NCBI GenBank assembly: GCA_964490795.1
Contig: CAZBDY010000001.1
Location: 24,806-88,805, forward strand
Length of the DNA: 64,000 bases
Reading direction: 5' to 3'
Source of the DNA: Candidatus Woesearchaeota archaeon
Lineage (GTDB): Archaea; Nanobdellota; Nanobdellia; Pacearchaeales; GW2011-AR1
The position numbers and the translations under genes are program-made. Under the pieces are notes generated by a model. It did no database searches. It was not told where the DNA came from and saw nothing but the letters and a program-made list of their open reading frames with translations. Positions 5,537 through 57,723 of the stretch are shown here, in pieces; the first letter of the stretch is position 1, and the number at the start of each line of letters is the position of its first letter.

Positions 5537-5793
5537 GCAGACCCAGGGTTTGCTCAAAACCGACTGATTAGTTTCAACAGGCATCCTCAGTTTTGCTACC
5601 CTGAAAGCACCTTAATCCTTAATTAGGGCTGCTCCGATCAAGGCCTGACCCGATTCATAAGGGCAAGGTCAAACAGGACAAAACTTCAACGTTATCCTGA
5701 TGTCTTTATCAACCAGTTTATCACTTGCCCCTTTAAGCCTGCCATAAAGCCCTATTTGCAAATAGCAGAGGGCTAACCTGCCAGCTTGTCTGC
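5537..5793 (-). ncRNA. signal recognition particle RNA (7S/SRP RNA)
   Basis: A GC-enriched ~290 bp ORF-free gap between two minus-strand genes. The 5' end GCAGAC(AAGCUGG) pairs with the 3' end (CCCUGGGU)CUGC, followed by a U-run (plus 5531-5536). The internal GGGUCAGGCC...GGAGCAGCC resembles the conserved helix-8 motif of SRP RNA (E. coli 4.5S GGUCAGGUCC..GGAAGCAGCC). An AT-rich TATA-like cttttaaa lies ~25 nt upstream. Confidence 0.6.
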
Positions 5794-41588: not shown

Positions 41589-41918
41589 TTTTGCGATAGT
41601 GTTCTCTCCTATTTTAATTTTCCCACCCTAAAACTTCATTTTTACTTCTTCGAAAAATCAAAGATTTTTCTCGACCACGTCCTGCGGACTTTCGCACTGC
41701 GGTGCTCAGGGCTAAGAACAGGGCTTAAACAGAAAATCCTTGCAGGATTTTCCCAAATTTTTTCTTTCAGAAAAAACTCTCGAGGTCACTTCGTTCTGCT
41801 CGAGCCCTACGGGTTGTTTAAGCCCGATTCAACGAAATTTTTTGCTCCACAAAAAACTCTGCGCGAGATTAATTTTAGTTATTCTATTCCCCACCCGAAG
41901 GATGTGCCTTAGAAAGAT

Positions 41919-42197: not shown

Positions 42198-42536
42198 GTT
42201 TTTAAGAATGCAAATGCCCTATATAAATATTTCTATATGTAACTACTATTAAAGGATAAAGGCACATCCTCCCCCACCCTTAAAATTAGTCTAAAATTAA
42301 TCTCGCTTGCCACGCCTTGCAGGCTTTCAGAAAATCAAAGATTTTCTTCAGGTCGCTGAACAGCGATTAAAAAGAAATTTCTTGCAGAAATTTCCCATAT
42401 TTTTGCTACGCAAAAACACTCGAGGTCACTTCGTTCCACTCGAGCCCTTCGGGTTGTTTAATCGCGATGTTAATTGCAATATTACTCGGTGGCAAAACAG
42501 CATAAATTTATTAAAGCCCTCTTATTCTAATACACT

Positions 42537-44878: not shown

Positions 44879-45511
44879 TTTCGTGTAGCGTCTTCTTTTT
44901 AGAAAAAAGAAGCAAAAAGATGGAAATCCCCATTTTCTTTTTTTAAGAAAAAAAGAAACAAAAAAAGCACGCGTCTCTCTAATACATAGCCCACCCAAAA
45001 AATATTATTTCAAAATTTTATAAAACGGCATTCTCAAAAACTTTGATTCGCTAAAAAACTTTCAGTTTTTGGCGCCCCAAAAATCTACGATTTTTTAGGG
45101 TTTTGCCTTCGGCATCGTTGCACTAAAAATCAATCCTAACGGAGAGTTTAACAAATTTAGAGATTCCAGAAACTTGCAGTTTCTTCCATCCAAATTTTTG
45201 CTTCGCAAAAACTTCTCTAAATCCTGATGTTATGTCTAATTGTTCGAAGGCACTAAACTTTGAAAATTAAAGATAGTTAAAGATGGCACTTCAATACCCC
45301 CCGACCACCCGCCCCAATTAGGAGATGTGTGCTTTCGTGCTACGCACATTTAGTCAAAATCAAAGATTTTGAAATTTATAATTAAATTTTTTTCCACTCT
45401 AGAGAGACTCGCGGTTTTCCTGAAGGAAAACAGATAGTCGGCTTACGCCGATTAATTAGTTGTAACTATAAAGTAAGAAAGATTTAAATAATCTTTTTAG
45501 TATTTTAGAAT

Positions 45512-46837
45512 ATGGTAACTATAGAGCAAGAAAACCAAGGGCTAAGGTTAGATATCCAAAATTACGATGGATCTAATGGAGAAAGTATATCTGTTGGAAA
45601 TTCCTCACAAAGAGATCCTAGAAACTATTTATTTAATTTTCAAAGAAAGCAGAGTAATCACGGATATACTTCTGGAGAAACTCTCTTTTTTAATGGAGAT
45701 TGTGGTAATAATTTAATCATTTCTACTTATGAATCAAACCTTTTTAAAAATGTAAGGAATGCTTTTGTTTTAGCAAATGAAGACAGAGTTGAAATAAGTC
45801 CAATTGCTAATATTTGGGATGCAATATCTAGGGGAAACAGAATCTTGTCTGGAAAGATTAATTATTTTATTCCTCAGAGAGTTTTATCTAGAGAAAATTT
45901 ACCTTCCGTAGATATTGAACAATTAAAGGAAGAACTAAAAATTAAATATGGGTTTGTTACAATGAATATAAATCCTTTATTAGAAGGAAGATCAAAAAAT
46001 GGAACCTATATTTTGACTCAGGGAAAATCTAAATTTGTTTTAAAATACAGGGGAAATAATGAAGAAAGGGCAGAATCAATTTCTCAAGTATTAGGATCTA
46101 TTGAAGATTACTTTCCAAGAGTCTTCCCAAGAATAGATAAAACCAAGAGTTATACTATTAAAATTGGAGAAAATTATTTTGGATTAGAAGAATTTATTGA
46201 AGCAAAAGAAAAGCCAGATTTAAATGTAGATTATTTTTCTCTATTAGGAGATCACACAGGAAGGCTACACAATTCTTTTTCTTTTTTTCTATCAGAGAAT
46301 CCAAGTTTGACGGAAAGATTACAACGAAGAGATTCTTTTAATGAAGCAAGTATAATCTCAGTATATCTGGATTTAATGAACAATAATCCAAATAAAAATA
46401 GGTTTTTGGTTGATTTTTTAGACGAAATTTTAAGGAAAGGTTTCGTTGAGTTTTTACCAAAATTACCTAAGGCACTTATTCATAGAGATTTGAACTGGTC
46501 AAATATTTTTTGGGATACAAATAAGCCAAAAATAGTTGATTCAGAATCTATTGGAATTTATAGGAGATTAGAGGAACTTATCGCCCCATTACTTTTAGGA
46601 GAAAATATGGCAAGACCTAATTATGCTAAAGGTTCTCTTGAGAGAATGATGGAAAATTATAATGATTCAATAAGTGAACCCCTTATTCAGGAAGAAGAAA
46701 ATATCCTTAGACCATTATTAAAATATTCTTTATTGAAATATTATGTTGTCCGTTCTATTAGGAGAAAAATTGAGGACTCAGACTATTTGGAGATTTTACA
46801 TAAGAATCTAAACGAAATAGGGGGAAGAGATGATTAA
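45512..46837 (+). CDS. APH/choline-kinase-like phosphotransferase with ~150 aa N-terminal extension
   Basis: Catalytic loop LIHRDLNWSNIFWD (HxDLxxxN), metal site IVDSESIG (IDxE-like), N-lobe Lys in FVLKYRGN. Confidence 0.55.
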   Translation: MVTIEQENQGLRLDIQNYDGSNGESISVGNSSQRDPRNYLFNFQRKQSNHGYTSGETLFFNGDCGNNLIISTYESNLFKNVRNAFVLANEDRVEISPIANIWDAISRGNRILSGKINYFIPQRVLSRENLPSVDIEQLKEELKIKYGFVTMNINPLLEGRSKNGTYILTQGKSKFVLKYRGNNEERAESISQVLGSIEDYFPRVFPRIDKTKSYTIKIGENYFGLEEFIEAKEKPDLNVDYFSLLGDHTGRLHNSFSFFLSENPSLTERLQRRDSFNEASIISVYLDLMNNNPNKNRFLVDFLDEILRKGFVEFLPKLPKALIHRDLNWSNIFWDTNKPKIVDSESIGIYRRLEELIAPLLLGENMARPNYAKGSLERMMENYNDSISEPLIQEEENILRPLLKYSLLKYYVVRSIRRKIEDSDYLEILHKNLNEIGGRDD

Positions 46838-47693
46838 CAGAATTCCTTTTGAGATAGACTTCCCTTTTGAAATTTTTGATGATTCCAAAAAGATTGATTT
46901 TAGTAATCCTGATGAGAGAAAAAAGCTTTTTGATAGAAATATTTATCGTTTTTTATATTCTGGAAATAAAAATCCCTTATTAGAAAAAAGAAATAGGATA
47001 TATCAAGGGTTATCTCAAAAAGTCGTAAATTCAATAAATAGAGATTCTCCTTCCCTAGAGGTTTTAAGTTGTTCCATTTTTGGTTCTTCTCTTTTTTCAG
47101 AAAAACCAGGAGATTTTGATTTTTTAGTAATTACAAAAGGAAATGAATTCTCTTTGGAAGAAACAACAATGAATTTAGAGGAAATTTCTTCAGAAGGATT
47201 TAAGAAAAATGAAGAATATAATGTTGGAATCTCTGTTAAAGGAGTAGATAATTTTAAGAAAGGAATTTGCAGTCCTTTATCGAGTGTTCCAGAAGAGTAT
47301 CAAAAACAAATAATCTATCGTACATCAAGTGCATTATTCAGAAGACACATACCTCTTTTAGGATATGATTTTTTAAAAAATAGAGAATTATTCCAAAGAA
47401 ATTTATATGCTCAAGCATCTGATTTGCTTATTAATACCTTTGATTTATATTATAATGATAATGAAAGGATAAAATTATGCCCTGATAAAAGAGCAAATAA
47501 AATTTTGTCTCGTATCTATGAAGCAGTCACTTATTTGAGTTTTGCAGAAGATAAGCCAGAAATAGGGCAATTAAGAAAACAAATTTCCAATTCTATTGGT
47601 TTTGGACTACCTCTTAGAGAAACGAAAAGGCTTTTTAATAGGGTAGTCTCTATTTATAATAATAAAACAGACAAAAAACCTAAAAATGAATAA
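46830..47693 (+). CDS. pol-beta-superfamily nucleotidyltransferase with helical C-terminal domain
   Basis: hG[GS]x9-13DhDh motif in LSCSIFGSSLFSEKPGDFDFLVIT; 287 aa; start overlaps the upstream stop by 8 nt. Confidence 0.5.
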   Translation: MINRIPFEIDFPFEIFDDSKKIDFSNPDERKKLFDRNIYRFLYSGNKNPLLEKRNRIYQGLSQKVVNSINRDSPSLEVLSCSIFGSSLFSEKPGDFDFLVITKGNEFSLEETTMNLEEISSEGFKKNEEYNVGISVKGVDNFKKGICSPLSSVPEEYQKQIIYRTSSALFRRHIPLLGYDFLKNRELFQRNLYAQASDLLINTFDLYYNDNERIKLCPDKRANKILSRIYEAVTYLSFAEDKPEIGQLRKQISNSIGFGLPLRETKRLFNRVVSIYNNKTDKKPKNE

Positions 47694-49386
47694 AATATTT
47701 GCTTTTGATTATGATGACACCCTTGCTGAACATGGCGGAAAAATAGATAGAGAAATGTCTGGAATTTTATCAAAAATGATCTTAGGGGGACATAAAATCT
47801 CTATAATTACTTCTAGAACTATGTATTGGTTAGAAAAGAATAATATAAATATTTTAGAAATGATTTTTCCAGATTTTTCCAGTTTATCTAATCTAGACAT
47901 TAAGAGAATAAAAGAAAATTTCATCCTTTATACTGGAAGAGGTAACGAAAAATTTTCCCCTGAAATTTCTAATGATAAATTTAATTTTTATGAAAAAGTA
48001 TCTTATAGAAAATCTCTCACATTAGAACAAGTCTTTAAAATTCAAGAGATCATTAAACAAGAATTGCCTAAAAAAATATTTTCTGGAAAAAATTATACTA
48101 AACAATTTTCTTCTAGAGATCTTCAGAGCATATTGAGAGTAATTATGCGAATTGAGAAAATTCAGAATTCGTCAAAGAATAAGATATTATCAAATATTAA
48201 ATATAAATTAAACAAAATAGGTAATTTATCCAAAATTCTTTTAGAGATTAACGGGAATTATATTAGTTTTAGTTTTAAGAATAAATCTTTTGCAATTAAA
48301 GATTTATTAAAAAATAATCCTTCATACCATCTAGATTATTATGGAGATTCTCCATTAGAAAACGATAAACCCATCTTTGATTTAGCAAAAGGTAAAATGA
48401 AAAATAAATTAAGTTTTATTTGCGTAGAAAACCCCGTCCATACTTTAAGTTTAGTTAAGGTTCATTGTGGAGCACCCCAAAATGAATCTGGCAATATTTT
48501 GGATGTTTTGTCTATTAAAGGAGCAAGAGAAAATATAAAAGAAAGAATAAAAGATTATTGGAAATCAATAGGCTTACAGATATCTTGGATCTCTCCCATG
48601 TTGTCTATTCTAGAAAATAATCAAGATAATGAAAATTTAGCCGTTTTTAAAATTAGAAATAAATTTCCTTCTTTGGGAAATAAAAAGAGCTTAGATTATT
48701 CTAGAAAATTAATCCAATTTAGGAAGAAGAAGATAAAAAATTTAGCTAAGAGAATAAATGGTTTTTTAATCAAGGGTTCTGTAGCAGATATTGGGGGCAG
48801 GGCAGATGATTTCATGGAAGAGATATTAAAAATAAATAATTCCGTAAAAAAAGCTTATGTTACAGACATTGGGGCGTTTTCAGAAAGATCTAAGAATCCA
48901 AAAATAGATTTTATTGTTCAACCTTCTTTAGTCAAAACTCCTTTCTTAGAAAATCAATTAAACAATCTTGTTCTTTCTTTAATTCTGCATCATATGGATA
49001 ATTTAGATCAAGAAATATTTATTAAACATCTTGTAAGTATTTTGAGGGCTAAAGGAAGATTAATTCTTATTGAAGAGGGTTATCCTGAAAGTTGTCTTAA
49101 TGAAAATTTATCTCAGAATATTAAACAATTTTTATCTTTTGAAAAGAACATAAAAATGAAAATAATTTCTTTTTATGATTGGTTTGGGAACAAAATAATG
49201 AGAAATAGAGATAATACCGCATTAACTTTTAATTATAAAACAATTGAAGAGTGGGAAGAAATATTTAGTAAAGCTGGATTGACATTGATTCATTCTGAAT
49301 TTATTGGGAAAAAGCCTAAACATTTAGATTTATATCCTCCAAAAATAATCATGGTCTTTGAAAAAATGGAGAAAGATAAAAAATGA
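47686..49386 (+). CDS. fusion protein: N-terminal HAD-IIB (Cof-like) phosphatase plus C-terminal class I SAM-methyltransferase-like domain
   Basis: HAD motif I FAFDYDDTL (DxDxT), motif II ISIITSRT, motif IV YYGDSPLEND. The C-terminal half has ADIGGRADDF (degenerate GxGxG) and LILHHM...GRLILIE, typical of a Rossmann MTase. Confidence 0.5.
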   Translation: MNKIFAFDYDDTLAEHGGKIDREMSGILSKMILGGHKISIITSRTMYWLEKNNINILEMIFPDFSSLSNLDIKRIKENFILYTGRGNEKFSPEISNDKFNFYEKVSYRKSLTLEQVFKIQEIIKQELPKKIFSGKNYTKQFSSRDLQSILRVIMRIEKIQNSSKNKILSNIKYKLNKIGNLSKILLEINGNYISFSFKNKSFAIKDLLKNNPSYHLDYYGDSPLENDKPIFDLAKGKMKNKLSFICVENPVHTLSLVKVHCGAPQNESGNILDVLSIKGARENIKERIKDYWKSIGLQISWISPMLSILENNQDNENLAVFKIRNKFPSLGNKKSLDYSRKLIQFRKKKIKNLAKRINGFLIKGSVADIGGRADDFMEEILKINNSVKKAYVTDIGAFSERSKNPKIDFIVQPSLVKTPFLENQLNNLVLSLILHHMDNLDQEIFIKHLVSILRAKGRLILIEEGYPESCLNENLSQNIKQFLSFEKNIKMKIISFYDWFGNKIMRNRDNTALTFNYKTIEEWEEIFSKAGLTLIHSEFIGKKPKHLDLYPPKIIMVFEKMEKDKK

Positions 49387-50120
49387 GACCTCTGATATGT
49401 TGCAGTGTTGAAAATTTAAAGGAATTTTCTTTTGAAGATTATCCATTTGAGGGGTATGAATTTAAGACTTTTGGAAGAGGATTTAGTCCAAACATAATCT
49501 TATTAATAAAATTAAAAGAAATGTTTAAAGGAAAAGAATTATCTTTGCATAGCCAATTAAGTAGAATTTTTAGTTCTAGAGAAAAGGGTTTTCCAGAATT
49601 TTCTGAAGCAGAAATGAATATCTTAAAATCTGAGATAATTATTTCAAAAATTATAGGAATTAAGCAGATAAATTTTCATATGAAAGAAACAGAATTTACT
49701 GAAGATGAAACCAAAAAATTCAATGAAATTATAAATTTTGCTAATAAAAATGGAATAGAGATGATTTATGAAAACCATGTTTGTTCAGAGGAAGTGATCT
49801 TTAGAGTTCTAAAAAATTTCCCGAGGATTCAATTTTGTTTAGATATAGGTCATTTAAATGTAGCAGTCCACATGGGTAAATTTAAAATGAATCTGGATGA
49901 ATTTCTGGAAAAGGTAAAATCGAGATTAGTTCATATTCATGCACATAACAATTACGGAGAAAAAGATGAACATAATTCTTTAGACGAAGGAAATTTTAAT
50001 TGGAGAAATGTTTTAGATTACTTAGGTAAGGATCATTTAAAAAAAGTAATTATTGAATCCAAGAAAAAAGAAGATATATTAAAATCAAAAAAATTATTAT
50101 TAAACTACTTTAAAGAATAA
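49383..50120 (+). CDS. xylose-isomerase-like TIM-barrel enzyme (sugar-phosphate isomerase/epimerase; AP-endonuclease-2 fold)
   Basis: Metal-binding pattern CLDIGHLN ... HIHAHNN ... DEHNSLDEG; start overlaps the upstream stop by 4 nt. Confidence 0.5.
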   Translation: MRPLICCSVENLKEFSFEDYPFEGYEFKTFGRGFSPNIILLIKLKEMFKGKELSLHSQLSRIFSSREKGFPEFSEAEMNILKSEIIISKIIGIKQINFHMKETEFTEDETKKFNEIINFANKNGIEMIYENHVCSEEVIFRVLKNFPRIQFCLDIGHLNVAVHMGKFKMNLDEFLEKVKSRLVHIHAHNNYGEKDEHNSLDEGNFNWRNVLDYLGKDHLKKVIIESKKKEDILKSKKLLLNYFKE

Positions 50121-50618
50121 AACTTTCGCTTTTCGTAGCGACTTCTTTTAGAAAAAGAAGCAAAAGCGAGTCTCTCCACCTCAAAAAATTTATTTTCTTT
50201 TTAGAAAAAAGAAACAAAAAAGAGCGCGTGCCCTAAAAGATAGTCTTCTACGAAGATAATTTATATAATAAAACTCAAACTCAACTCTGCGGTTTTTTCT
50301 TTTCAAGAAAAAATCCTCGGGGACGTCTTGCAGACTTTCGCTTCTCTCACCCTCTTTTTTCGGGACACATTTTTCCCAAATTTTTCCTTCGGAAAAACTC
50401 TCGAGCGTTCCACAATTTTTCCAGCTCTGACTTCGTCGAGGGAAAAATTTCTACACCTCGAGCCCTACGGGTTTTTTAATCGCGATGTTCAACTCAATAA
50501 ATTTCTGGCGGTAACTCAATACCCCTCCCTCCTGCATTACCTAATTAATTCTAAAAATTATAAAAGAAAAGATTTATATAGTATTTCTTACATATCTTAC
50601 TATTAAGAGGAAAATAAA

Positions 50619-50873
50619 ATGCAAGATGAAATCAAAGACATAAAAATTGTGAAGATTACAAATAAAGGGCAGATTTGTATTCCTAGTGTAGCAAGATCAC
50701 TAGCAGGATTCAAGGAAGGAACAAAAATTAGCGTGGTAGTTTATTCTGACCGTGTTGAGTTAAAGCCACTTAAAAAAATAAGTGAAGATATGTTTCCGGC
50801 TTTAATTTCTGAAGAAGTTCTTGCAGAAGCATGGGATACTCCAGAAGAGGATGAAATATGGAAGGATTTATGA
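50619..50873 (+). CDS. AbrB/MazE-family antitoxin
   Basis: SpoVT/AbrB swapped-hairpin motif KITNKGQICIPSVARSLAGFKEGTKISV. Confidence 0.6.
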   Translation: MQDEIKDIKIVKITNKGQICIPSVARSLAGFKEGTKISVVVYSDRVELKPLKKISEDMFPALISEEVLAEAWDTPEEDEIWKDL

Positions 50874-51199
50874 ATTATGAAAAAGGGGATGTTGTAATTT
50901 TTAAATTTCCTTTTTCCAAGGGTGAAAAAGCTAAGAAAAGACCTTCTTTAGTTGTGGTAAAATTAAGAGGAGAGAGTGTTATACTCTGCCAAATTACTGG
51001 GCAACAAAGACCAGATCCAAATATTCTAGAGTTAAAAAGAAAAGAATTTCAATCTGGAGGAATTTCAAGAGATAGTTTTATTCGTCCATCTGTTTTGTTT
51101 ACAATTAACAAGTCAAGGATAGAATACAAAGCAGGAAGATTAAACCAAGAAAAAATTAAACAGGTTGAAAACGAACTTGTTAAGATTTTTACACAATAA
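50858..51199 (+). CDS. MazF/PemK-family toxin (endoribonuclease)
   Basis: GDVVIFKFPFSKGEKAKKRPSLVV is the PemK signature; overlaps the antitoxin stop by 16 nt. Confidence 0.6.
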   Translation: MEGFMNYEKGDVVIFKFPFSKGEKAKKRPSLVVVKLRGESVILCQITGQQRPDPNILELKRKEFQSGGISRDSFIRPSVLFTINKSRIEYKAGRLNQEKIKQVENELVKIFTQ

Positions 51200-51281
51200 T
51201 TCCCAAAAGAATATTTTTCAGATACAAAATAAAATTTTACCCCCACAACTTTATAAAAGGAACAATCTATCTTATAAAATC

Positions 51282-52454
51282 ATGAAGGAGTTCACACTGC
51301 CAGATTATAATGGAGGAAGTATAGTTAATTTAATGAGTTCTATTGCTAATTCTTTTGGAACAAAAACAATATATCGTCCTCTTAAAATTCTTCCTCCTGA
51401 AAAACTTAAAGACAAGAAGAATATAGCACTTTTGATTATAGATGGAATGGGTTATGAATATCTTAAGAAAAAAGAAAAGATGACTATACTTAATGATTAT
51501 CTTGCTGGTTCAATGACCTCTGTTTTTTTACCTACTACTGCTTCAGCAATAACAACCTTTCTTACAGGTGTTGCTCCACAACAACACGCATTTACTGGAT
51601 GGTATATGTTGCTTAAAGAAATTGGAGTGGTTTCAACAATATTGCCCTTTTCTCCAAGAGTTGGTGGAGATGCTTTTAGTAGTCAAGGAATTGAAGTGAA
51701 AGATGTGTTAAACCAAAAAGCATTTACTAGCAAGATAAAAGCGAGCAATTTTTCAATAAAGCATAAAAAAATTGCCTATTCAGATTTTTCAAAAGAGATG
51801 TCAAAAAATTCAAAGATTCTTCCTTATGGAACTTTGAATGGATTTTTTATGCAAATCAAGAAAGCTATAACTTCCAACAACAGGCGAAAATATATCTATG
51901 CCTACTGGCCTGAATTAGATTCCCTAAATCATAAACATGGTGTTGAACATAAAAAAGCAGAGAAACATTTTAAACAAATAGACAAAAAATTGAGAAGTTT
52001 CATTAAAAGTCTAAAAGGAACAAACACTCTTTTGATAATAACAGCAGACCACGGATTTACAAACACTCCTGTTGAGAGAATTATCAAATTAGAAGAACAT
52101 CCAAAAATGAAAGAGTGTTTAACACTGCCTCTTTGCGGAGAGGGAAGAGTTGCTTATTGTTATGTTCATCCTGAAAAAACTAATCAATTTGAGAATTATG
52201 TTAAGAAAAAGTTGGGTAAATATTGTCTTCTTTTCAAAAGTCAAGAATTGATAAAGAAAAATTATTTTGGATTAAAAGAACCAAATCCAAAACTTTTTGA
52301 TAGAATAGGAGATTATATTCTTGTGTTTAAAGAAAATTATATAATCAAAGATAAGATTAAAAAATACAAGAAAAAGAAAAAACCTAATATTGGACATCAC
52401 GGAGGAGTTAGTAGAAATGAAATGATTGTTCCTTTAGTCCTTATAGATTGTTAA
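51282..52454 (+). CDS. alkaline-phosphatase-superfamily type I phosphodiesterase/nucleotide pyrophosphatase (NPP)-like enzyme
   Basis: ALLIIDGMGYEYL, PTTASAITTFLTG (Thr nucleophile), YWPELDSLNHKHG, ITADHGF, IGHHGG. Start moved to the internal ATG at 51282 to avoid overlap with mazF. Confidence 0.55.
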   Translation: MKEFTLPDYNGGSIVNLMSSIANSFGTKTIYRPLKILPPEKLKDKKNIALLIIDGMGYEYLKKKEKMTILNDYLAGSMTSVFLPTTASAITTFLTGVAPQQHAFTGWYMLLKEIGVVSTILPFSPRVGGDAFSSQGIEVKDVLNQKAFTSKIKASNFSIKHKKIAYSDFSKEMSKNSKILPYGTLNGFFMQIKKAITSNNRRKYIYAYWPELDSLNHKHGVEHKKAEKHFKQIDKKLRSFIKSLKGTNTLLIITADHGFTNTPVERIIKLEEHPKMKECLTLPLCGEGRVAYCYVHPEKTNQFENYVKKKLGKYCLLFKSQELIKKNYFGLKEPNPKLFDRIGDYILVFKENYIIKDKIKKYKKKKKPNIGHHGGVSRNEMIVPLVLIDC

Positions 52455-52633
52455 AAATCCCCATTTTCTTTTTTAGAAAGAAAGAAACAAAAAAGCACAC
52501 CTCAAATTTTATGGGATGGCTATTTGCCCGCGACCCGCTCTTTCTAATTGATAAAAAGTTACTGAAAAAGCAAATCACTCGACCCACCAAAAACTAAGAG
52601 AGATTTTAGAAATATTATATGCTCTTTTTCAAA

Positions 52634-53035
52634 TTAGATTAATAATAAAAATTTTTCTGGACTAATAATCTTTATCATATCATAAGCTTTTAATTTTAAT
52701 AAGTGTTTATCTTGGCTTATAATAAAATCTGCTTTCCCACTTATTCCTGCTTCAAGAAATTTATTATCATTAGGATCATTTTTTATAATACTAAGTTTTA
52801 TTGTAGGTTCAACAATAATAGAATTTTTAATTATCAATCTTCTCCATTCTTCTATCATATTCCCAGGCATTTGAATTTTGAAATTTTTTAATGTTTTTAC
52901 AAACTCTTCTAGAATCTCTATAGAACTAACTAATTCAAAATCCTTATTTTTCCATTTATTTATTATTTTGGAACAAAAATTTCCTTCCCAGAAAATTCCA
53001 GAGACAAAAACATTCGTATCAAGGACAACCCTCAT
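52634..53035 (-). CDS. PIN-domain toxin (VapC-like)
   Basis: MRVVLDTNVFVSG..., acidic residues DTN/E/D in PIN spacing, 133 aa. Confidence 0.6.
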   Translation of the reverse strand: MRVVLDTNVFVSGIFWEGNFCSKIINKWKNKDFELVSSIEILEEFVKTLKNFKIQMPGNMIEEWRRLIIKNSIIVEPTIKLSIIKNDPNDNKFLEAGISGKADFIISQDKHLLKLKAYDMIKIISPEKFLLLI

Positions 53036-53497: not shown

Positions 53498-54304
53498 ATG
53501 AACCTAATAGACATCCACTCACATCTAGATCATAGCAAATTTAAATCAGACTTAGATAAAGTTATTGAAAGAGCAAAAAAACAAGGAGTAAAAAAAATAA
53601 TAACTTCAGGAGTAAATTCTTCAACAAACAGATTAATTTTAGAAATTCAGAAAAAATATCCTGAAATAATTGAATGTTCTTTTGGAATCTACCCCCTAGA
53701 TGCTTTAGCTTCTGAAATGAATCAAGGAGAATCTTCTGGCTTTGTAAGAGATATTGAAAAATTTGATTTAAATAAAGAACTAAAATGGATAGAAAAAAAT
53801 AAAGATAAATGTTTGGCAATAGGAGAAGCAGGATTAGATTATAAGTTTACTAAACAAGAAAAATTAAAACAAGAACAAAAAAAGATATTTGAAAAAGTTA
53901 TTAAGTTAACAGAGAAAATAAACAAACCAGTAATAGTACATACAAGAAAAGCTGAACTTGATTCAGTAGAAATGTTAGAAAAATCAAAAATAAAAAACAT
54001 AATTCTACATTGTTTTAATGGAAGAAAACATTTAATTAAAAGAGCAGTTGAAAATAAGTGGTATTTATCAATACCTCCAATTATAACAAGGCTTCAACAT
54101 TTTCAAATGCTAGCTGAAATAGTACCTTTGACTCAGATTTTAACAGAAACAGATTCTCCATATTTATCACCAGTTTCAGGAGAAAGAAATGAATCTTCCA
54201 ATGTAAAAACCACAATAAAGGAAATAGCAAAAATAAAAAACCTTTCTGAGGAAAAAACAGCAGAACAAATATATAAAAATTTTAAAAACATATTTTTAAA
54301 ATGA
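53498..54304 (+). CDS. TatD-family metal-dependent hydrolase/DNase
   Basis: MNLIDIHSHLD... with His/Glu/Asp metal ligands (HTRKA, HCFNG, ETDSPY). Confidence 0.65.
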   Translation: MNLIDIHSHLDHSKFKSDLDKVIERAKKQGVKKIITSGVNSSTNRLILEIQKKYPEIIECSFGIYPLDALASEMNQGESSGFVRDIEKFDLNKELKWIEKNKDKCLAIGEAGLDYKFTKQEKLKQEQKKIFEKVIKLTEKINKPVIVHTRKAELDSVEMLEKSKIKNIILHCFNGRKHLIKRAVENKWYLSIPPIITRLQHFQMLAEIVPLTQILTETDSPYLSPVSGERNESSNVKTTIKEIAKIKNLSEEKTAEQIYKNFKNIFLK

Positions 54305-54855
54305 AATCAAAAAAAATACAAGAAATAAAACAAAACATATCTTCTTTATTAAGTAATATCTCAGATAATATTGATTCTTTGTATGAGATAGCTACAAAAG
54401 ATGAAAAAACAAAAATTTATAATTATAAATTTTTTTCAGAATTATTTAGCATAGAATTTGAAAAAGCAAAAAGAGGACAAAAACTTTCACTTGCAATATT
54501 TGATATAGATTATTTTAAAAAAATAAATTCAAAATATGGACATATTAAGGCAGATGATTTTTTAGTAAAAATAGCAAAAATAATTCAAAATAGCATAAGA
54601 AAATCAGATATTTTAGCAAGATTTGGAGGAGAAGAATTTATTTTATTATTGCCTCTGACTTCAAAAACAAAAGCTAAAAAAACAGCTGAAAGAATAAGAA
54701 GACAAATTGAAAAAAATTTTAAAAAATACAACATAACAATTTCTGGAGGGATTTCACAATACAAGAAAAAAGACACTAAATCTAATTTTAAGAAAAGAGC
54801 TGATAAAGCATTATATAAAGCAAAAAAAGTGAGGAACAAAATGGTTTGCTTATAG
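54301..54855 (+). CDS. stand-alone GGDEF-domain protein (putative diguanylate cyclase)
   Basis: LAIFDIDYFKKINSKYGHIKADDFL ... RFGGEEFILLLP (GGEEF active-site variant) ... ITISGGISQY; 184 aa with no sensor domain. Confidence 0.55.
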   Translation: MKSKKIQEIKQNISSLLSNISDNIDSLYEIATKDEKTKIYNYKFFSELFSIEFEKAKRGQKLSLAIFDIDYFKKINSKYGHIKADDFLVKIAKIIQNSIRKSDILARFGGEEFILLLPLTSKTKAKKTAERIRRQIEKNFKKYNITISGGISQYKKKDTKSNFKKRADKALYKAKKVRNKMVCL

Positions 54856-55376
54856 TTAAAATGAATTTAATTAATGAAATAAAATCTGGAAAAGTTTTCA
54901 TATATCCTACGGATACAGTATACGGGTTAGGGTGCAATGCATTAAATAAGAAAGCAGTAGAAAAAATCAAAAATATTAAAAAAAGAAATAAAAATAAACC
55001 TCTTTCTATAATATCTCCAGATTATAAATGGATAGAAAGAAAGTGTATCATTAATTTGGATTTAAAAAAATATCTTCCTGGGCCATATACCCTTATTTTA
55101 AAAAAGAGAGATAAAAATTTTCTTAAACATATATCTAAAACAGAATTTTTAGGAATTAGGATTCCTGACAATGAGTTTAGTTATAAAGTCCAAAAATCAG
55201 GAGTCCCTTTTGTAACAACCTCAGTTAATAAGTCAGGAGAGAAGCCTGCATCTCAAATAAAGGAAATTCCTGAAGAAATAAAAAGCCAAGCAGATATTAT
55301 CATAGATAAAGGAAAGTTGTCTGGAAAACCCTCTACCTTGATTATGGGAGAGGAAAAAATAAAAAGAGACAGATAA
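54846..55376 (+). CDS. L-threonylcarbamoyladenylate synthase (Sua5/YrdC/TsaC family)
   Basis: FIYPTDTVYGLGCNA ... PLSIISPD ... VTTSVNKSGEKP YrdC motifs. Confidence 0.7.
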   Translation: MLIVKMNLINEIKSGKVFIYPTDTVYGLGCNALNKKAVEKIKNIKKRNKNKPLSIISPDYKWIERKCIINLDLKKYLPGPYTLILKKRDKNFLKHISKTEFLGIRIPDNEFSYKVQKSGVPFVTTSVNKSGEKPASQIKEIPEEIKSQADIIIDKGKLSGKPSTLIMGEEKIKRDR

Positions 55377-56212: not shown

Positions 56213-56884
56213 TTATTTGGTTAAGAAACTTTCTAAATCTTGCCAAATTTTATCAGTAACTTCTGTTTTAGATAATCTTTTTCCTGTTTCATGATTCACA
56301 CAATCAATTAAAAGCCAGTCATTTTTTGATTTACACAACCAAGAAAAAGTTTCCATAACTCTTTCCTGATAATCTTCATTTGATTCATGCCCATCTTGTT
56401 TTCTTTCTTCTCTATCCATAGCTTTAACAGACTCAGTTCTAGGAACCCATAATCCATAAGTTCTATCTGGCATTGCAACTCCTAATCTTTTTTCAAAATC
56501 TATATTCCACTTAACAAAATCTTCTCTTTCTTCTGGAGGAAGTTTAGCTGCCTGATGAATCCAGTTACTTCCAATATATCTATCACATAAAATGTTTGTT
56601 CCAGAAATTAAATGATATCCTATTAATGATGCTTTCTCTTCTCTATTCCAGGCATAAGGTGCTGCTGATTGTTTTGGTGGAAGTTTAGCTGGATCTCCAA
56701 ATTCTCCATTTAAATAAGCTCTTATCATTTTTCCTGTAGTAGTAGTATAATCAGGAAAACTAAAACTAAATATTTTTATTCCAGAACTTTTTGCTCTTTC
56801 TAATAATCTTTTTGTTTGAGTTGCTTTTCCTGCACCATCACTTCCCTCTATTGATATTATTTTGCCTCTTTTTGCCATTTTCAC
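56213..56884 (-). CDS. tmk: thymidylate kinase-like P-loop kinase
   Basis: ISIEGSDGAGKATQ P-loop and LCDRYIGSNWIHQAA (DRY..S..AYQ-like). Confidence 0.55.
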   Translation of the reverse strand: MKMAKRGKIISIEGSDGAGKATQTKRLLERAKSSGIKIFSFSFPDYTTTTGKMIRAYLNGEFGDPAKLPPKQSAAPYAWNREEKASLIGYHLISGTNILCDRYIGSNWIHQAAKLPPEEREDFVKWNIDFEKRLGVAMPDRTYGLWVPRTESVKAMDREERKQDGHESNEDYQERVMETFSWLCKSKNDWLLIDCVNHETGKRLSKTEVTDKIWQDLESFLTK

Positions 56885-57723
56885 TCTTCAACATTATAAG
56901 CCTTTCCTTCTTCTGCTTCTTGTTTTAATCTTGCTCTTCCTGACTCAAATAAAGCTTGAACCATTTCAGAATCAGAATTCCATGTTCTTTCTTCAAAACT
57001 TCTTTGTTTTAAAGTTTTAAGAAAACCCTTAAAATTATTAAAATAACTTCCATAAATATGGTAAGAATCAGCAATATGAATATATTGTCCTGGTTTTATT
57101 TCTCTTCCTTTTCTTTTTGAAACCTCTTCTGCCACATATCTTTGAATATCTGTAAATGCCCACATATTCATAAAAGCAGCTTTAAAAGCATCATTACTTC
57201 TCATATGCATATTTAATCTTAATTCATCTCCAAAAATTCTAAACCACATTCTTTGTAAACAAGCAGGATCATCAACAGTTGGGTCAACATCAGGTTTCCA
57301 TGTAATTGCTTGTGCTCTTCTTGTGTGAGGGGCTTCAGATAATTTTGGGATAACTTGTTCATTAATCTGGTCAATTAATTTAACTTTTCCTGTTTTATCC
57401 CTAACATCATATTCAAATAATCTTTGATGGTAAGTATAACTCCATTTTCCCTCTTCTGGATTTACCCATGAATCATGAACACCATTTGTTACTTCTTGTC
57501 TATAAACTTCTAAATCTTCTAAACCTCCAGGAAAAGCCTTATGAATTCTTGGTTCTTGAAAAGGATTTGCAACAACAATAGTGGCTGTGACATCTCTTGA
57601 TTTAGGGTCTTCTGGTTTATCATATTCGGTTTTAATTCTATCCCCTTCCTCCCATGTTTTTACTACTGATTTTTCCCATGCTTCTGGCAAAGTTTTAGCA
57701 TCAACATATATATTTGAAGTCAT
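56881..57723 (-). CDS. ThyA-family protein (thymidylate synthase / nucleotide hydroxymethylase-like)
   Basis: PACLQRMWF ... LRLNMHMRSNDAFKAAFMNMWAFT aligns with ThyA PPCH..QF ... [25 protein letters not shown] (catalytic Cys retained, His replaced); 4 nt overlap with tmk. Confidence 0.5.
   Translation of the reverse strand: MTSNIYVDAKTLPEAWEKSVVKTWEEGDRIKTEYDKPEDPKSRDVTATIVVANPFQEPRIHKAFPGGLEDLEVYRQEVTNGVHDSWVNPEEGKWSYTYHQRLFEYDVRDKTGKVKLIDQINEQVIPKLSEAPHTRRAQAITWKPDVDPTVDDPACLQRMWFRIFGDELRLNMHMRSNDAFKAAFMNMWAFTDIQRYVAEEVSKRKGREIKPGQYIHIADSYHIYGSYFNNFKGFLKTLKQRSFEERTWNSDSEMVQALFESGRARLKQEAEEGKAYNVEE

What the first reader, a model, noticed from the sequence alone, without database searches (positions are those of the whole stretch)
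45512..50120. Tightly overlapping four-gene operon: APH/ChoK-like kinase, pol-beta nucleotidyltransferase, HAD phosphatase fused to a methyltransferase-like domain, and xylose-isomerase-like TIM barrel
Start and stop codons overlap between all four genes (46830/46837, 47686/47693, 49383/49386), indicating translational coupling. The catalytic motifs are all intact by eye: HRDLNWSN and IVDSE in the kinase, GSx10DFDF in the NTase, DYDDT and GDSxxxND in the HAD domain, and HxH...D/E metal ligands in the TIM barrel. The HAD to Rossmann-MTase fusion is an unusual domain architecture. Together the four genes read as kinase plus nucleotidyltransferase plus phosphatase/MTase plus isomerase, i.e. a small-molecule pathway such as a phosphorylated or nucleotidylated sugar or polyol, a head-group, or a modification/inactivation of a xenobiotic, but they match no canonical pathway I can name (not LicABC, not the DIP, MPG or CDP-alcohol routes). 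The operon sits in a GC-shifted island between repeat modules, next to toxin-antitoxin genes, so it may be an accessory or defence-associated metabolite system.
Basis: partly seen in the sequence, partly recalled or inferred. Interest (0 to 1): 0.75.

Follow-up and report, generated by a model that had tools for sequence, protein, structure and literature searches.

The report
Kinase–nucleotidyltransferase enzyme cassette of DPANN archaea
A real four-gene operon in a tiny symbiotic (DPANN) archaeon encodes a kinase, a nucleotide-adding enzyme, phosphate-removing enzymes and a methyltransferase. It belongs to a rare, undescribed gene cassette that most likely works on nucleotides or RNA ends, not on sugars.

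Summary
The four overlapping ORFs, their motifs and the flanking toxin-antitoxin genes are real. The claimed GC shift is not (27.3% against 27.9% for the window). The conserved core is the first two genes. K is an APH-fold kinase with an extra N-terminal beta domain. N is a sequence-orphan pol-beta nucleotidyltransferase with a HEPN-like helical bundle, the same architecture as kanamycin nucleotidyltransferase. K sits directly upstream of N at all 42 junctions in about 50 loci, all from Woese-, Pace- and Nanoarchaeota.

The other genes are swappable. Phosphoesterases vary: HAD-IIB, an EndoIV-like TIM barrel, a histidine phosphatase, or a PHP enzyme resembling pAp phosphatase/RNase AM. Some variants add a class I methyltransferase or a cytidine-deaminase-fold domain. 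These occur fused as N-MT, N-deaminase-MT and K-N-deaminase-HAD. Distant bacterial N homologues pair with 2H phosphoesterases, an APS-kinase domain and a PNK-like P-loop kinase. RtcB/Archease lies beside the module in three loci.

My best reading (confidence 0.5) is a cassette that modifies and resets a nucleoside/nucleotide or an RNA 3' end. This is analogous to Pnkp/Hen1 or RlaP–RtcB but built from different folds. The substrate is unproven. Novelty: new variant of a known kind. Interest 0.6.

The parts
45484..45491 (+). TATA-box-like element (TTTAAATA) about 21-28 nt upstream of the K start codon. It is a candidate archaeal promoter for a leaderless or short-leader operon transcript.
   Evidence: Read directly from the sequence. 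Not tested. Archaeal promoters are not covered by the promoter scan tool.
45512..46837 (+). K: 441-aa APH/ELK-fold kinase. Residues 1-~100 form an all-beta domain of unknown fold. The kinase domain spans residues ~150-441, with K178, H324-x-D326-x4-N331 and D343.
   Evidence: ORF. Weak APH, CotS and homoserine-kinase profile hits. AF2 model at pLDDT 85. Foldseek best matches are homoserine kinase II 2ppq (1e-10), amicoumacin kinase AmiN, YtaA, YihE, APH(9) and NahK. Catalytic residues are invariant in 28 homologues.
46830..47693 (+). N: 287-aa sequence-orphan pol-beta nucleotidyltransferase. It has a conserved N-terminal IPFxIDFP segment, an NTase core (~aa 49-145; G85-S86, D95-x-D97, invariant E111) and a HEPN-like four-helix bundle (~aa 155-280) that lacks an Rx4-6H motif.
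47686..48471 (+). HAD-IIB (capped) phosphatase domain of the fusion protein HM (aa 1-~262), with all four HAD motifs intact.
   Evidence: TIGR01484 HAD-SF-IIB at 2.6e-9. Motifs D8/D10, S39-T42-S43, K198/K200 and D221/D227 are invariant in 7 homologues.
48481..49386 (+). Helical linker (~100 aa) plus a class I SAM-dependent methyltransferase domain of HM (aa ~266-566). In relatives the same unit is fused to N, or to N-deaminase, instead of to HAD.
   Evidence: Weak Methyltransf_11 and CpaM hits. The profile search against PDB finds generic class I MTases (3dtn, 3i9f). Motifs ADIGGR, YVTD, LHH and LIE are conserved. Alternative fusions.
49383..50120 (+). T: 245-aa AP_endonuc_2 (xylose-isomerase-like) TIM barrel of the MJ1311 type. 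Its invariant H56, H99, E130, D154, H157, H186, D195, H197 and E225 fit the nine EndoIV metal ligands in order and spacing.
   Evidence: PF01261 at 2.7e-17. MJ1311 (3wqo) is the only PDB relative, at 2e-13. Weak CbiR hit at 3.7e-9. Invariant residues.
44879..45511 (.). Upstream intergenic region (33% GC). It carries short palindromic repeat modules that recur downstream of the operon.
50121..50618 (.). Downstream intergenic region (35% GC). It has the same repeat modules in the same order, plus T-rich stretches right after the T stop codon that may act as a terminator.

Best explanation
The operon is one variant of a rare accessory enzyme cassette of DPANN archaea.

Its obligate core is a translationally coupled pair:
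- K, an APH-fold kinase.
- N, a KNTase-like nucleotidyltransferase (a pol-beta core plus a HEPN-like substrate-binding bundle).

Proposed substrate (inferred): a nucleobase-bearing ribose compound. This would be either a nucleoside/nucleotide-type small molecule or the terminal nucleotide of an RNA such as tRNA.

Proposed steps (all inferred):
- K phosphorylates a ribose hydroxyl.
- N transfers an NMP from an NTP onto a hydroxyl of the same substrate.
- The phosphoesterases remove or reset phosphates. Here these are the capped HAD-IIB domain and the EndoIV-like TIM barrel T. Elsewhere they are a histidine phosphatase, a PHP enzyme of the pAp-phosphatase/RNase AM type, or a 2H enzyme.
- The SAM methyltransferase marks or protects the product.

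The logic resembles end-healing and modification cassettes (Pnkp/Hen1, RlaP with RtcB) or PAPS/CoA-type chemistry ('nucleotidylate, 3'-phosphorylate, recycle pAp'). It is built from unrelated folds.

Shown: gene order, the overlaps, the folds, intact catalytic residues, conservation of the K-N pair, the accessory swaps and the fusions.

Inferred: the substrate class, the order of reactions and the biological role (salvage or detoxification, repair, or conflict).

Within this explanation I weight a small nucleotide substrate at about 0.3 and RNA ends at about 0.2.
For: 1. The K-N core.
- K lies directly upstream of N on the same strand at 42 of 42 junctions. The genes overlap by 4-35 nt at 39 of them.
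- K-N also occurs alone, wedged between EF-1alpha and EF-2 in L004.

2. Fusions tie the parts to a single substrate.
- N-MT proteins of 570-581 aa and N-deaminase-MT proteins of 744-749 aa.
- K-N-deaminase-HAD in one 1268-aa protein, P0064.
- N-deaminase in P0067 and N...HAD in P0081.
- CDA-fold deaminases are known, from established knowledge of the family, to act only on nucleobases in free bases, nucleosides, nucleotides, nucleic acids or the riboflavin precursor.

3. The accessory phosphoesterases are nucleotide-type.
- The PHP partner scores best against 3',5'-nucleoside bisphosphate phosphatase (5.5e-45) and RNase RNM (3.9e-42).
- T's invariant residues fit the nine EndoIV metal ligands (seven aligned, two by spacing).
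- The stand-alone deaminase is closest to TadA. The fused one is closest to anti-phage dCTP deaminase.

4. Distant N homologues repeat the theme with other folds.
- A 2H phosphoesterase overlaps N in L052 and L056.
- In L052, N is fused to an APS-kinase domain (7e-43) and followed by an AAA_33/PNK-like P-loop kinase.
- In a 5166-aa protein, N lies about 300 residues upstream of a YbaK/tRNA_edit domain.

5. RtcB lies next to the module in L026, L012 and L049, in three different arrangements. Archease accompanies it in L026 and L012. By my own back-of-envelope estimate, about 0.2 such cases are expected by chance.

6. Precedent: RlaP, a pol-beta NTase in RtcB operons, adds 1-2 NMPs to damaged RNA 3' ends (PMC12776372).

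7. Outside the metal ligands, N's conserved residues are mostly Arg/Lys. K has an invariant C-terminal RR. This fits an anionic rather than a cationic substrate, though it is weak evidence.
Against: - No recognisable RNA-binding domain is present, and K is acidic (pI 5.7).
- The closest structural relatives of K and N act on amino acids, sugars and antibiotics.
- HAD-IIB enzymes are typically sugar-phosphate phosphatases. Capped HADs prefer small molecules, which argues against an RNA polymer as the HAD substrate.
- The window's own variant has no deaminase. The nucleobase argument rests on relatives that share 40-50% identity in N.
- L026 and L012 share other syntenic genes, so the RtcB adjacency may reflect one or two events rather than three.
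- The 2H association comes from a single lineage: the two 2H proteins are 64% identical.
- T's only solved relative, MJ1311, is of unknown function. The hhalign probability for T against EndoIV is only about 1%.
- Pol-beta NTases normally use hydroxyl acceptors, so Kennedy-type 'phosphate then NDP-X' chemistry is not expected.
- There are no experimental data for any member.
Confidence: 0.5

Rival explanations
1. Small-molecule activation pathway for a sugar, polyol or lipid/glycan head-group. K makes X-phosphate. N makes or transfers a nucleotide-activated X. HAD and MT trim and methylate it. T isomerises it. The product would be a compatible solute or a surface decoration.
For: - K resembles NahK, choline/ethanolamine kinases and aminopropanol kinase.
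- The HAD-IIB family is rich in sugar-phosphate phosphatases.
- T belongs to the xylose-isomerase-like superfamily.
- Glycosyltransferase genes flank the module in L002/L021, and a GT gene sits inside it in L005, L009 and L024.
Against: - Cytidine-deaminase-fold domains are fused into N-MT and K-N-HAD proteins.
- The PHP partner is of the pAp-phosphatase/RNase AM type.
- Distant homologues partner with 2H enzymes and APS kinase.
- N has the ANT/KNTase architecture, not the architecture of sugar-1-phosphate or CDP-alcohol nucleotidyltransferases.
- T has a His-rich, EndoIV-like set of metal ligands.
- No transferase for the activated product is conserved in the module.
Confidence: 0.15
2. Xenobiotic or antibiotic inactivation cassette. 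K and N O-phosphorylate and O-nucleotidylate an aminoglycoside, aminocyclitol or nucleoside antibiotic that targets the ribosome. The deaminase and MT are additional inactivating activities.
For: - The best structural matches are resistance enzymes: APH(9), APH(2''), AmiN and corramycin kinase for K; ANT(4'), AAD(9) and AadA for N.
- Blasticidin-S deaminases share the CDA fold (established knowledge).
- The cassette is sporadic and looks mobile.
Against: - Resistance genes do not normally come as strictly coupled kinase+NTase pairs together with two or three phosphatases, which would undo the modification.
- The conserved pocket residues are basic rather than acidic, as would be expected for cationic aminoglycosides (weak).
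- Sequence identity to all resistance enzymes is 10-17%.
- K, N and HM have no match above a curated threshold in Pfam or NCBIfam (which includes resistance-enzyme models such as Mph).
Confidence: 0.12
3. Conflict module (toxin-antitoxin or defence). N is a toxic or signalling NTase, like MenT/TglT, MNT-HEPN, CD-NTases or Hailong HalB. K is its regulating kinase, like the TakA antitoxin or SrkA/YihE. The phosphoesterases, deaminase and MT act as effectors or reset enzymes.
For: - The upstream gene overlaps the downstream NTase gene, as in toxin-antitoxin pairs.
- MazEF and PIN lie next to the window operon. MazE-like and PIN genes lie upstream in L002. A MazF homologue lies upstream in L033.
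- JGI names some K homologues 'RdoA (MazF antagonist)'.
- The fused deaminase is closest to the anti-phage dCTP deaminase.
- HalB and HEPN toxins appear among the fold hits.
- In L004 the pair is inserted into a conserved EF gene cluster.
- Distribution is very sparse: 11 of 185,579 species representatives.
Against: - No PADLOC model matches K or N.
- There is no sensor and no classic effector (nuclease, pore, NADase) in any variant.
- The HEPN-like bundle lacks the Rx4-6H motif.
- MenT structures are not among the top fold matches.
- The family is absent from viral contigs and PHROGs.
- Operon GC equals host GC.
Confidence: 0.13
4. Cofactor nucleotide-loop salvage or remodelling, for example of cobamides. 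K would be a cobinamide (aminopropanol-OH) kinase. N would be a nucleotidyltransferase like CobU/CobY. T would be a CbiR-like phosphodiesterase. HisPhos or HAD would be a CobC-like phosphatase. The MT and deaminase would tailor a purine lower ligand.
For: - The best NCBIfam hits, all below their cutoffs, are: T to CbiR (3.7e-9), HisPhos to alpha-ribazole phosphatase CobC (5.5e-16), and MT to the corrinoid-associated CpaM (2.7e-4).
- An aminopropanol kinase is among K's fold matches.
- A ThiC/BzaF-like radical SAM gene lies next to a distant N homologue.
Against: - All these hits fall far below the family cutoffs and are the generic nearest representatives of large superfamilies.
- No CobS, CobT or other corrinoid gene appears in any locus whose flanks carry Pfam annotation.
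- The 2H, APS-kinase and RtcB associations do not fit this model.
- A phosphate acceptor is atypical for pol-beta NTases.
Confidence: 0.05

Closest known systems
Kanamycin nucleotidyltransferase ANT(4') and the ANT(3'')(9)/AAD(9)/AadA adenylyltransferases
   Same: Both share the two-domain architecture of a pol-beta NTase core plus a C-terminal helical (HEPN-like) substrate-binding bundle, at a similar size. N has the hG[GS]...DxD motif. These enzymes give the best full-length fold matches.
   Different: Identity is only 10-17% and there is no sequence-profile match. N has a conserved ~50-aa N-terminal extension (IPFxIDFP). N is obligatorily coupled to a kinase and to phosphoesterases. Its conserved pocket residues are basic.
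APH/ELK small-molecule kinases (homoserine kinase II, AmiN, YtaA/CotS, YihE/SrkA, APH(9), NahK)
   Same: The bilobal kinase fold and the catalytic Lys, HxDxxxxN loop and metal-binding Asp are shared.
   Different: K has an extra ~100-aa all-beta N-terminal domain (shorter in type C). The HRDLN loop resembles protein kinases. An invariant C-terminal IRR motif is present. Pfam APH scores below threshold.
Bacterial Pnkp/Hen1 RNA repair system, and T4 Pnkp plus Rnl
   Same: The set of activities is the same: kinase, phosphoesterase, nucleotidyl transferase and SAM methyltransferase in one operon. It is accessory and sporadically distributed.
   Different: Every component has a different fold: APH rather than P-loop kinase; pol-beta rather than ligase-type NTase; HAD-IIB, EndoIV-like, HisPhos or PHP rather than calcineurin-type phosphoesterase. 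Any similarity of the MT to Hen1 is unproven. No ligase is encoded in the module. RNA as substrate has not been shown.
RlaP (PF10127), the RNA-ligase-associated pol-beta NTase of RtcB operons
   Same: Both are pol-beta NTases. N lies next to RtcB/Archease in three loci. RlaP adds 1-2 NMPs to damaged RNA 3' ends (PMC12776372).
   Different: N has no PF10127 match, even at E<=5. The RtcB association is seen in only 3 of about 50 loci. The obligate partner of N is a kinase, not a ligase.
PAPS/CoA-type chemistry (ATP sulfurylase with APS kinase; PPAT with dephospho-CoA kinase) with recycling by pAp phosphatase
   Same: All three elements are found across the family: NTase, kinase and a 3',5'-bisphosphate-nucleotidase-like PHP enzyme. 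One N homologue is fused to a genuine APS-kinase domain.
   Different: K is not an APS or DPCK kinase. The NTase fold differs. No sulfo- or phosphopantetheinyl-transferase is present. The analogy is purely by composition.
MJ1311 (PDB 3wqo), endonuclease IV and CbiR within the AP_endonuc_2 TIM-barrel superfamily
   Same: T shares the fold and the C-terminal half of the barrel with MJ1311 (2e-13). Its metal-ligand pattern fits EndoIV. A 2009 paper listed MJ1311 as the predicted EndoIV homologue of M. jannaschii (PMC2770678).
   Different: T is shorter (245 aa). There is no significant profile match to EndoIV or CbiR. The function of MJ1311 is itself unknown. T's substrate is not established.

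Membership tests
Pol-beta nucleotidyltransferase superfamily (N) | hG[GS]-x(8-13)-D-h-[DE]-h motif on the alpha-beta-alpha-beta core, plus a third carboxylate | tested here: met
ANT(4')/KNTase and AadA aminoglycoside nucleotidyltransferases (N) | Sequence-family membership (Pfam NTP_transf_2, KNTase_C or DUF4111, or resistance models) and an acidic aminoglycoside pocket | tested here: not met
HEPN-MNT toxin-antitoxin pair / HEPN ribonucleases (C-terminal domain of N) | Four-helix HEPN fold carrying the catalytic Rx4-6H motif | tested here: not met
RlaP (PF10127) RNA-repair NTase (N) | Match to PF10127 and location in an RNA-ligase operon | tested here: not met
   No PF10127 match. RtcB is adjacent in only L026, L012 and L049, and is not co-oriented as an operon in L026.
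APH / protein-kinase-like phosphotransferases (K) | Bilobal kinase fold with an ATP-binding Lys, the catalytic HxDxxxxN loop and a DFG-like metal-binding Asp | tested here: met
   Foldseek gives E of 1e-10 to 1e-6 to many APH-family structures. K178, H324, D326, N331 and D343 are invariant or nearly so. The Pfam APH score (14-24 bits) is at or below the gathering cutoff.
HAD superfamily, subfamily IIB (N-terminal half of HM) | Motifs I (DxDxT), II (S/T), III (K) and IV (DxxxD/GDxxxD), with a C2B cap inserted between motifs II and III | tested here: met
   TIGR01484 matches at 2.6e-9 over residues 4-235, with 37.4 bits against a cutoff of 41.8. All four motifs are invariant. The cap type is inferred from the IIB profile and the ~150-aa insert; it was not modelled.
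Class I SAM-dependent methyltransferases (C-terminal half of HM) | Rossmann-like fold with glycine-rich motif I and an acidic motif II residue | tested here: inconclusive
   Only weak profile hits were found: Methyltransf_11 (weak), CpaM at 2.7e-4, and PDB 3dtn at 2.4e-3. ADIGGR and YVTD are conserved.
Hen1 RNA 3'-terminal 2'-O-methyltransferase (MT) | Hen1-type MT domain with the metal-binding E..EH...H motif and an RNA 3'-end binding module | not tested
   No Hen1 family appeared among the Pfam, NCBIfam or PDB hits. No dedicated comparison was run.
Endonuclease IV (Nfo) phosphoesterases (T) | TIM barrel with nine ligands (H, H, E, D, H, H, D, H, E) for a trinuclear metal site | tested here: inconclusive
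   Invariant H56, H99, E130, D154, H157, H186, D195, H197 and E225 match in order and spacing. The profile search of solved-structure sequences matched only MJ1311.
Xylose-isomerase-like sugar isomerases/epimerases (T) | AP_endonuc_2 barrel with the E-D-H-E metal site and demonstrated sugar isomerase or epimerase activity | tested here: inconclusive
   PF01261 matches at 2.7e-17. D-psicose 3-epimerase gives only 6.9e-3. E130, D154, H186 and E225 could also form an E-D-H-E site. Activity cannot be tested with these tools.
Pnkp/Hen1 RNA repair system (whole operon) | P-loop 5'-kinase, calcineurin-type 2',3'-phosphoesterase and ligase-type adenylyltransferase in Pnkp, plus the Hen1 methyltransferase | tested here: not met
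   None of these domain families is detected in K, N, HM or T. Only the list of activities is parallel.
LicA/LicC/LicD and CDP-alcohol (Kennedy-type) pathways | Choline-kinase-fold kinase, plus an NTP_transferase-fold cytidylyltransferase, plus a LicD or CDP-alcohol transferase | tested here: not met
   K does resemble LicA distantly (4r77, 1e-6). N is not an NTP_transferase or LicD family member. No transferase is conserved in the module.
Known anti-phage defence systems (PADLOC-DB) | Match of the core proteins to a PADLOC model | tested here: not met
   No hit for K, N or HM. T has a weak hit to PDC-M70B (6.7e-4). Only the fused deaminase of relatives matches a defence model, dCTPase at 7.8e-11.

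The most novel reading that the evidence does not exclude
The K-N cassette is a previously unknown RNA-end processing system of DPANN archaea. A protein-kinase-fold enzyme and a KNTase-like NTase phosphorylate and extend, or tag, broken or toxin-damaged tRNA/rRNA ends. Interchangeable phosphoesterases clean the ends. A methyltransferase protects the repaired end, and the housekeeping ligase RtcB seals it. This would be a third, independently invented RNA repair or end-marking toolkit alongside T4 Pnkp/Rnl and Pnkp/Hen1. It would also be the first use of an APH-fold kinase on RNA.
Probability: 0.2. Interest if true: 0.8.

Novelty: new variant of a known kind. Interest (0 to 1): 0.6.

Why it matters
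DPANN archaea have tiny genomes and depend on hosts for nucleotides and lipids, so each conserved accessory enzyme set points to how they cope.

- **An uncharacterised family.** N has no Pfam, NCBIfam, PADLOC or PHROG model and no relative among solved structures. Only 67 clusters were found among 1.84 billion representatives. Yet it recurs from DPANN archaea to giant Omnitrophota-type proteins, and every well-resolved operon pairs it with a kinase, a phosphoesterase or both.
- **If the substrate is RNA.** This would be a new RNA repair or marking system built from 'antibiotic-resistance' folds, and a lead on how such folds originated.
- **If the substrate is a nucleotide-like small molecule.** This would reveal an unknown salvage, detoxification or signalling route in host-dependent archaea.
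- **In either case.** The family gives biochemists a compact four-protein system with clear, testable activities.

Tried and rejected
- **Sequence-profile searches on N.** Pfam at E up to 5, NCBIfam, PADLOC, PHROGs, and PDB by both phmmer and profile all gave nothing. Fold search was needed instead.
- **The K alignment built from fetched loci.** I rebuilt it from homologous-protein hits.
- **The N-terminal beta domain of K.** It could not be searched alone. Its only Pfam hit is noise.
- **GC-island hypothesis.** Rejected.
- **Viral origin.** No relatives of K or N in IMG/VR or in PHROGs.
- **ThyA/Tmk linkage.** These genes appear near the module only once each (window at 6 kb, L005, L053). I treat this as anecdotal.
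- **aaRS adjacency (LysRS, MetRS, GluRS).** It is seen in several loci, but I estimate about 34% of random DPANN loci would have a translation or tRNA gene within five genes. It is not counted as evidence.
- **pI as an RNA-binding indicator.** Uninformative: K 5.7, N 8.9, genome median 9.3.
- **Burroughs & Aravind 2016, the RNA-repair survey.** It is not held in the library. I could not check whether this NTase family is mentioned there.
- **Cobamide-remodelling idea.** Considered because of the CbiR, CobC and CpaM best hits. Down-weighted because all are far below their cutoffs and no corrinoid genes co-occur.

Full report
**Observation**

The window carries four co-directional ORFs:
- K, 45512-46837, 441 aa.
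- N, 46830-47693, 287 aa.
- HM, 47686-49386, 566 aa.
- T, 49383-50120, 245 aa.

The junctions read ATGATTAA, ATGAATAA and ATGA, giving overlaps of 8, 8 and 4 nt. A TTTAAATA element lies about 25 nt upstream of the K start. T-rich sequence follows the T stop codon. This fits a single transcription unit, though that is my inference.

The one slip is that the G-S to D spacer in N is 8 residues, not 10.

MazE/MazF (50619-51199) and a PIN gene (52634-53035) lie immediately downstream.

The 'GC-shifted island' is not real. The operon is 27.3% GC and the window 27.9%. Only the two flanking intergenic regions are GC-richer, at 33-35%. Those regions do share short palindromic repeat modules in the same order.

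**Organism**

Homologues recovered from species-representative genomes are all DPANN archaea: Woesearchaeota, Pacearchaeota and Nanoarchaeota MAGs. The neighbouring genes fit an archaeon, for example the pyruvoyl arginine decarboxylase. An identical copy of the operon exists in public assemblies.

**The four proteins**

- **K.**
  - It gives only sub-threshold APH, CotS and homoserine-kinase profile hits.
  - Its AF2 model (pLDDT 85) matches homoserine kinase II, amicoumacin kinase, YtaA, YihE, APH(9) and NahK at E of 1e-10 to 1e-8.
  - The ATP lysine, HxDxxxxN loop and metal-binding Asp are conserved.
  - Residues 1-~100 form an extra all-beta domain of unknown type.
- **N.**
  - It has no hit in Pfam, NCBIfam, PADLOC, PHROGs or PDB sequences.
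  - Its AF2 model (pLDDT 85) is a pol-beta NTase core followed by a four-helix bundle.
  - Foldseek ranks ANT(4'), AAD(9), AadA and Hailong HalB first.
The HEPN Rx4-6H motif is absent.
- **HM.**
  - It is a HAD-IIB phosphatase (TIGR01484 at 2.6e-9, all four motifs).
  - A ~100-aa helical segment joins this to a generic class I SAM methyltransferase.
- **T.**
  - It is an AP_endonuc_2 TIM barrel (2.7e-17). Its only solved relative is MJ1311.
  - Its invariant H56, H99, E130, D154, H157, H186, D195, H197 and E225 mirror the nine EndoIV metal ligands in order and spacing.
  - A weak hhalign places seven of them on Nfo ligands.
  - I therefore lean towards T being a phosphoesterase rather than an isomerase, as an inference.

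**What is conserved**

N has only 25 close clusters among 5.8 billion proteins, and K has 23.

I examined about 50 loci fetched from genomes and metagenomes.
- K lies directly upstream of N at all 42 junctions seen. The genes overlap by 4-35 nt at 39 of them.
- The remaining genes vary:

| Type | Gene order | Notes |
|---|---|---|
| A (the window) | K, N, HAD-MT, T | One locus has a histidine phosphatase in place of T |
| B | K, N-MT fusion (570-581 aa) or N-deaminase-MT fusion (744-749 aa) | Followed by a 183-aa histidine phosphatase or by T |
| C | deaminase, PHP, K, N | All four genes overlapping |

- In L004 the pair stands alone between EF-1alpha and EF-2.
- Flanking genes differ almost everywhere.
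- Only 11 of 185,579 species representatives were hit.

So this is a sporadic accessory cassette that moves as a unit. It was not found in viral collections.

**Clues to the substrate**

1. *Deaminase fusions.* CDA-fold deaminase domains are fused into N-MT proteins. In P0064 (1268 aa), K, N, deaminase and HAD form one chain. Such deaminases act only on nucleobase-containing compounds; that is family knowledge, not a result obtained here.
2. *Nucleotide-type phosphoesterases.* The PHP partner scores best against 3',5'-nucleoside bisphosphate phosphatase (5.5e-45) and RNase RNM (3.9e-42). The stand-alone deaminase is closest to TadA. The fused one is closest to anti-phage dCTP deaminase.
3. *Distant homologues.* A full HMMER profile search of 1.84 billion representatives found 67 N-family clusters. 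Beyond DPANN, they include:
   - N fused to an APS-kinase domain (7e-43). It is preceded by an overlapping 2H phosphoesterase and followed by a PNK-like AAA_33 kinase.
   - A second 2H-N pair.
   - N together with HAD, with PCMT, and with a helicase, GNAT and sugar transferase.
   - An N domain about 300 residues upstream of a YbaK/tRNA_edit domain inside a 5166-aa protein.
   
   Across every well-resolved operon the theme 'NTase plus kinase and/or phosphoesterase' therefore persists, even when the partner folds change.
4. *RtcB adjacency.* RtcB lies beside the module in L026, L012 and L049, in three different arrangements, with Archease also present in L026 and L012. For a single-copy gene in a genome of about 1000 genes, I estimate about 0.2 such cases by chance. 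L026 and L012 share other synteny, so the events may not be independent.
5. *Precedent.* A recent preprint shows that RlaP, a pol-beta NTase in RtcB operons, adds one or two NMPs to damaged RNA 3' ends (PMC12776372).

**Interpretation**

The best-supported reading (confidence 0.5) is a cassette that acts on a nucleobase-bearing ribose substrate.
- K phosphorylates a hydroxyl.
- N adds an NMP to a hydroxyl.
- The phosphoesterases remove or reset phosphates.
- The MT marks the product.

Within this reading I slightly prefer a small nucleotide-like substrate. The HAD is capped, the PHP is pAp-phosphatase-like, there is an APS-kinase fusion, K is acidic, and both core folds belong to small-molecule modifiers. 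The alternative is RNA termini, supported by RtcB, tRNA_edit, the TadA-like deaminase, the 2H plus PNK-like kinase set, and the RlaP and Hen1 precedents.

Rivals:
- Antibiotic inactivation (0.12).
- A toxin-antitoxin or defence module in which K regulates a toxic or signalling N (0.13).
- Cobamide nucleotide-loop remodelling, suggested only by sub-threshold CbiR, CobC and CpaM hits (0.05).

None is excluded. The deaminase fusions and nucleotide-type phosphoesterases argue most strongly against the sugar/polyol idea. The built-in phosphatases argue against simple resistance. The lack of any sensor or effector, and of any PADLOC match, argues against a classical defence system.

**Comparison with known systems**

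N works like KNTase/ANT enzymes in architecture, but it fails every sequence-membership test for them, for RlaP (PF10127) and for catalytic HEPN domains. K is a member of the APH/ELK fold class but of no named family. As a whole, the operon parallels Pnkp/Hen1 or PAPS/CoA-type chemistry only in its list of activities, and every fold differs. I found no description of this cassette in the searchable literature. The key 2016 RNA-repair survey was not available.

**Verdict**

This is a genuine, conserved and undescribed enzyme cassette with an orphan NTase family at its core. The function is constrained to nucleotide or RNA chemistry but is not resolved. Novelty: new variant of a known kind. Interest: 0.6.

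Noticed in passing
window 41757-41828, 42397-42471, 44893-44963, 45190-45213, 50195-50220, 50376-50489, 52455-52494: A family of short, partly palindromic intergenic repeat modules bounds successive gene cassettes between 41.7 and 52.6 kb: NadE-ArgDC-C39, the K-N-HM-T operon, and MazEF-phosphodiesterase. These intergenic regions are 33-37% GC against 27% for the genes. There is no Rfam match. They could be MITE-like elements, terminator/promoter modules or recombination sites.
   Followed up: partly
window 54301-54855 (+): A 184-aa GGDEF-domain protein (PF00990 at 1.2e-38, with a weaker Cas10 palm hit) sits in an archaeal genome. It overlaps TatD (53498-54304) and Sua5/YrdC (54846-55376). Diguanylate-cyclase-type domains are, to my knowledge, unusual in archaea.
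   Followed up: no
window 50619-52454 (+): MazE (84 aa) and MazF/PemK (113 aa) are followed by an overlapping 429-aa alkaline-phosphatase-superfamily protein. That protein matches Phosphodiest at 1.3e-27 and has weak BREX PglZ hits. This may be a three-gene unit. A MazF homologue also lies upstream of the K-N module in L033.
   Followed up: partly
window 5537-5793 (-): The SRP RNA scores just above threshold as the Bacteria_large_SRP model (62.3 bits against 60) rather than as an archaeal SRP model.
   Followed up: no
L026:5606-8451; L012:7005-8968; L049:2116-2394: RtcB lies next to the K-N module in three loci, in three different arrangements, and Archease accompanies it in L026 and L012. L026 and L012 also share a downstream syntenic block, clusters c41-c44.
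   Followed up: partly
L052:82-2601; L056:6466-7882: In distant, apparently bacterial relatives, a 2H (LigT/CPDase) phosphoesterase gene overlaps the N-family gene by 8 nt. In L052, N is fused to an APS-kinase domain and followed by an AAA_33/PNK-like kinase.
   Followed up: partly
proteins P0082 (5166 aa), P0083 (5746 aa), P0093 (7465 aa), P0104 (2679 aa), P0088 (2204 aa): The N-family domain is embedded in giant multidomain proteins. P0093 contains what look by eye like hydrophobic membrane-spanning stretches and TPR-like repeats. P0088 carries helicase, GNAT and sugar-transferase domains, and P0082 a YbaK domain. One related 849-aa protein, P0079, is annotated as coming from Candidatus Omnitrophota.
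   Followed up: partly
window 56213-57723 (-); L005:3049-4503; L053:6219-7969: Thymidylate kinase and a ThyA-like gene lie 6 kb downstream of the operon. A ThyA-like protein with a DUF4346 pterin-binding domain lies directly upstream of K in L005. Thymidylate kinase and a ThiC-like radical SAM gene precede a distant N homologue in L053. Each is a single instance, so this may be coincidence.
   Followed up: partly
L004:7072-13321: The K-N pair alone is inserted on the opposite strand between the EF-1alpha/S10 genes and the EF-2 gene, within an otherwise conserved translation gene cluster.
   Followed up: no
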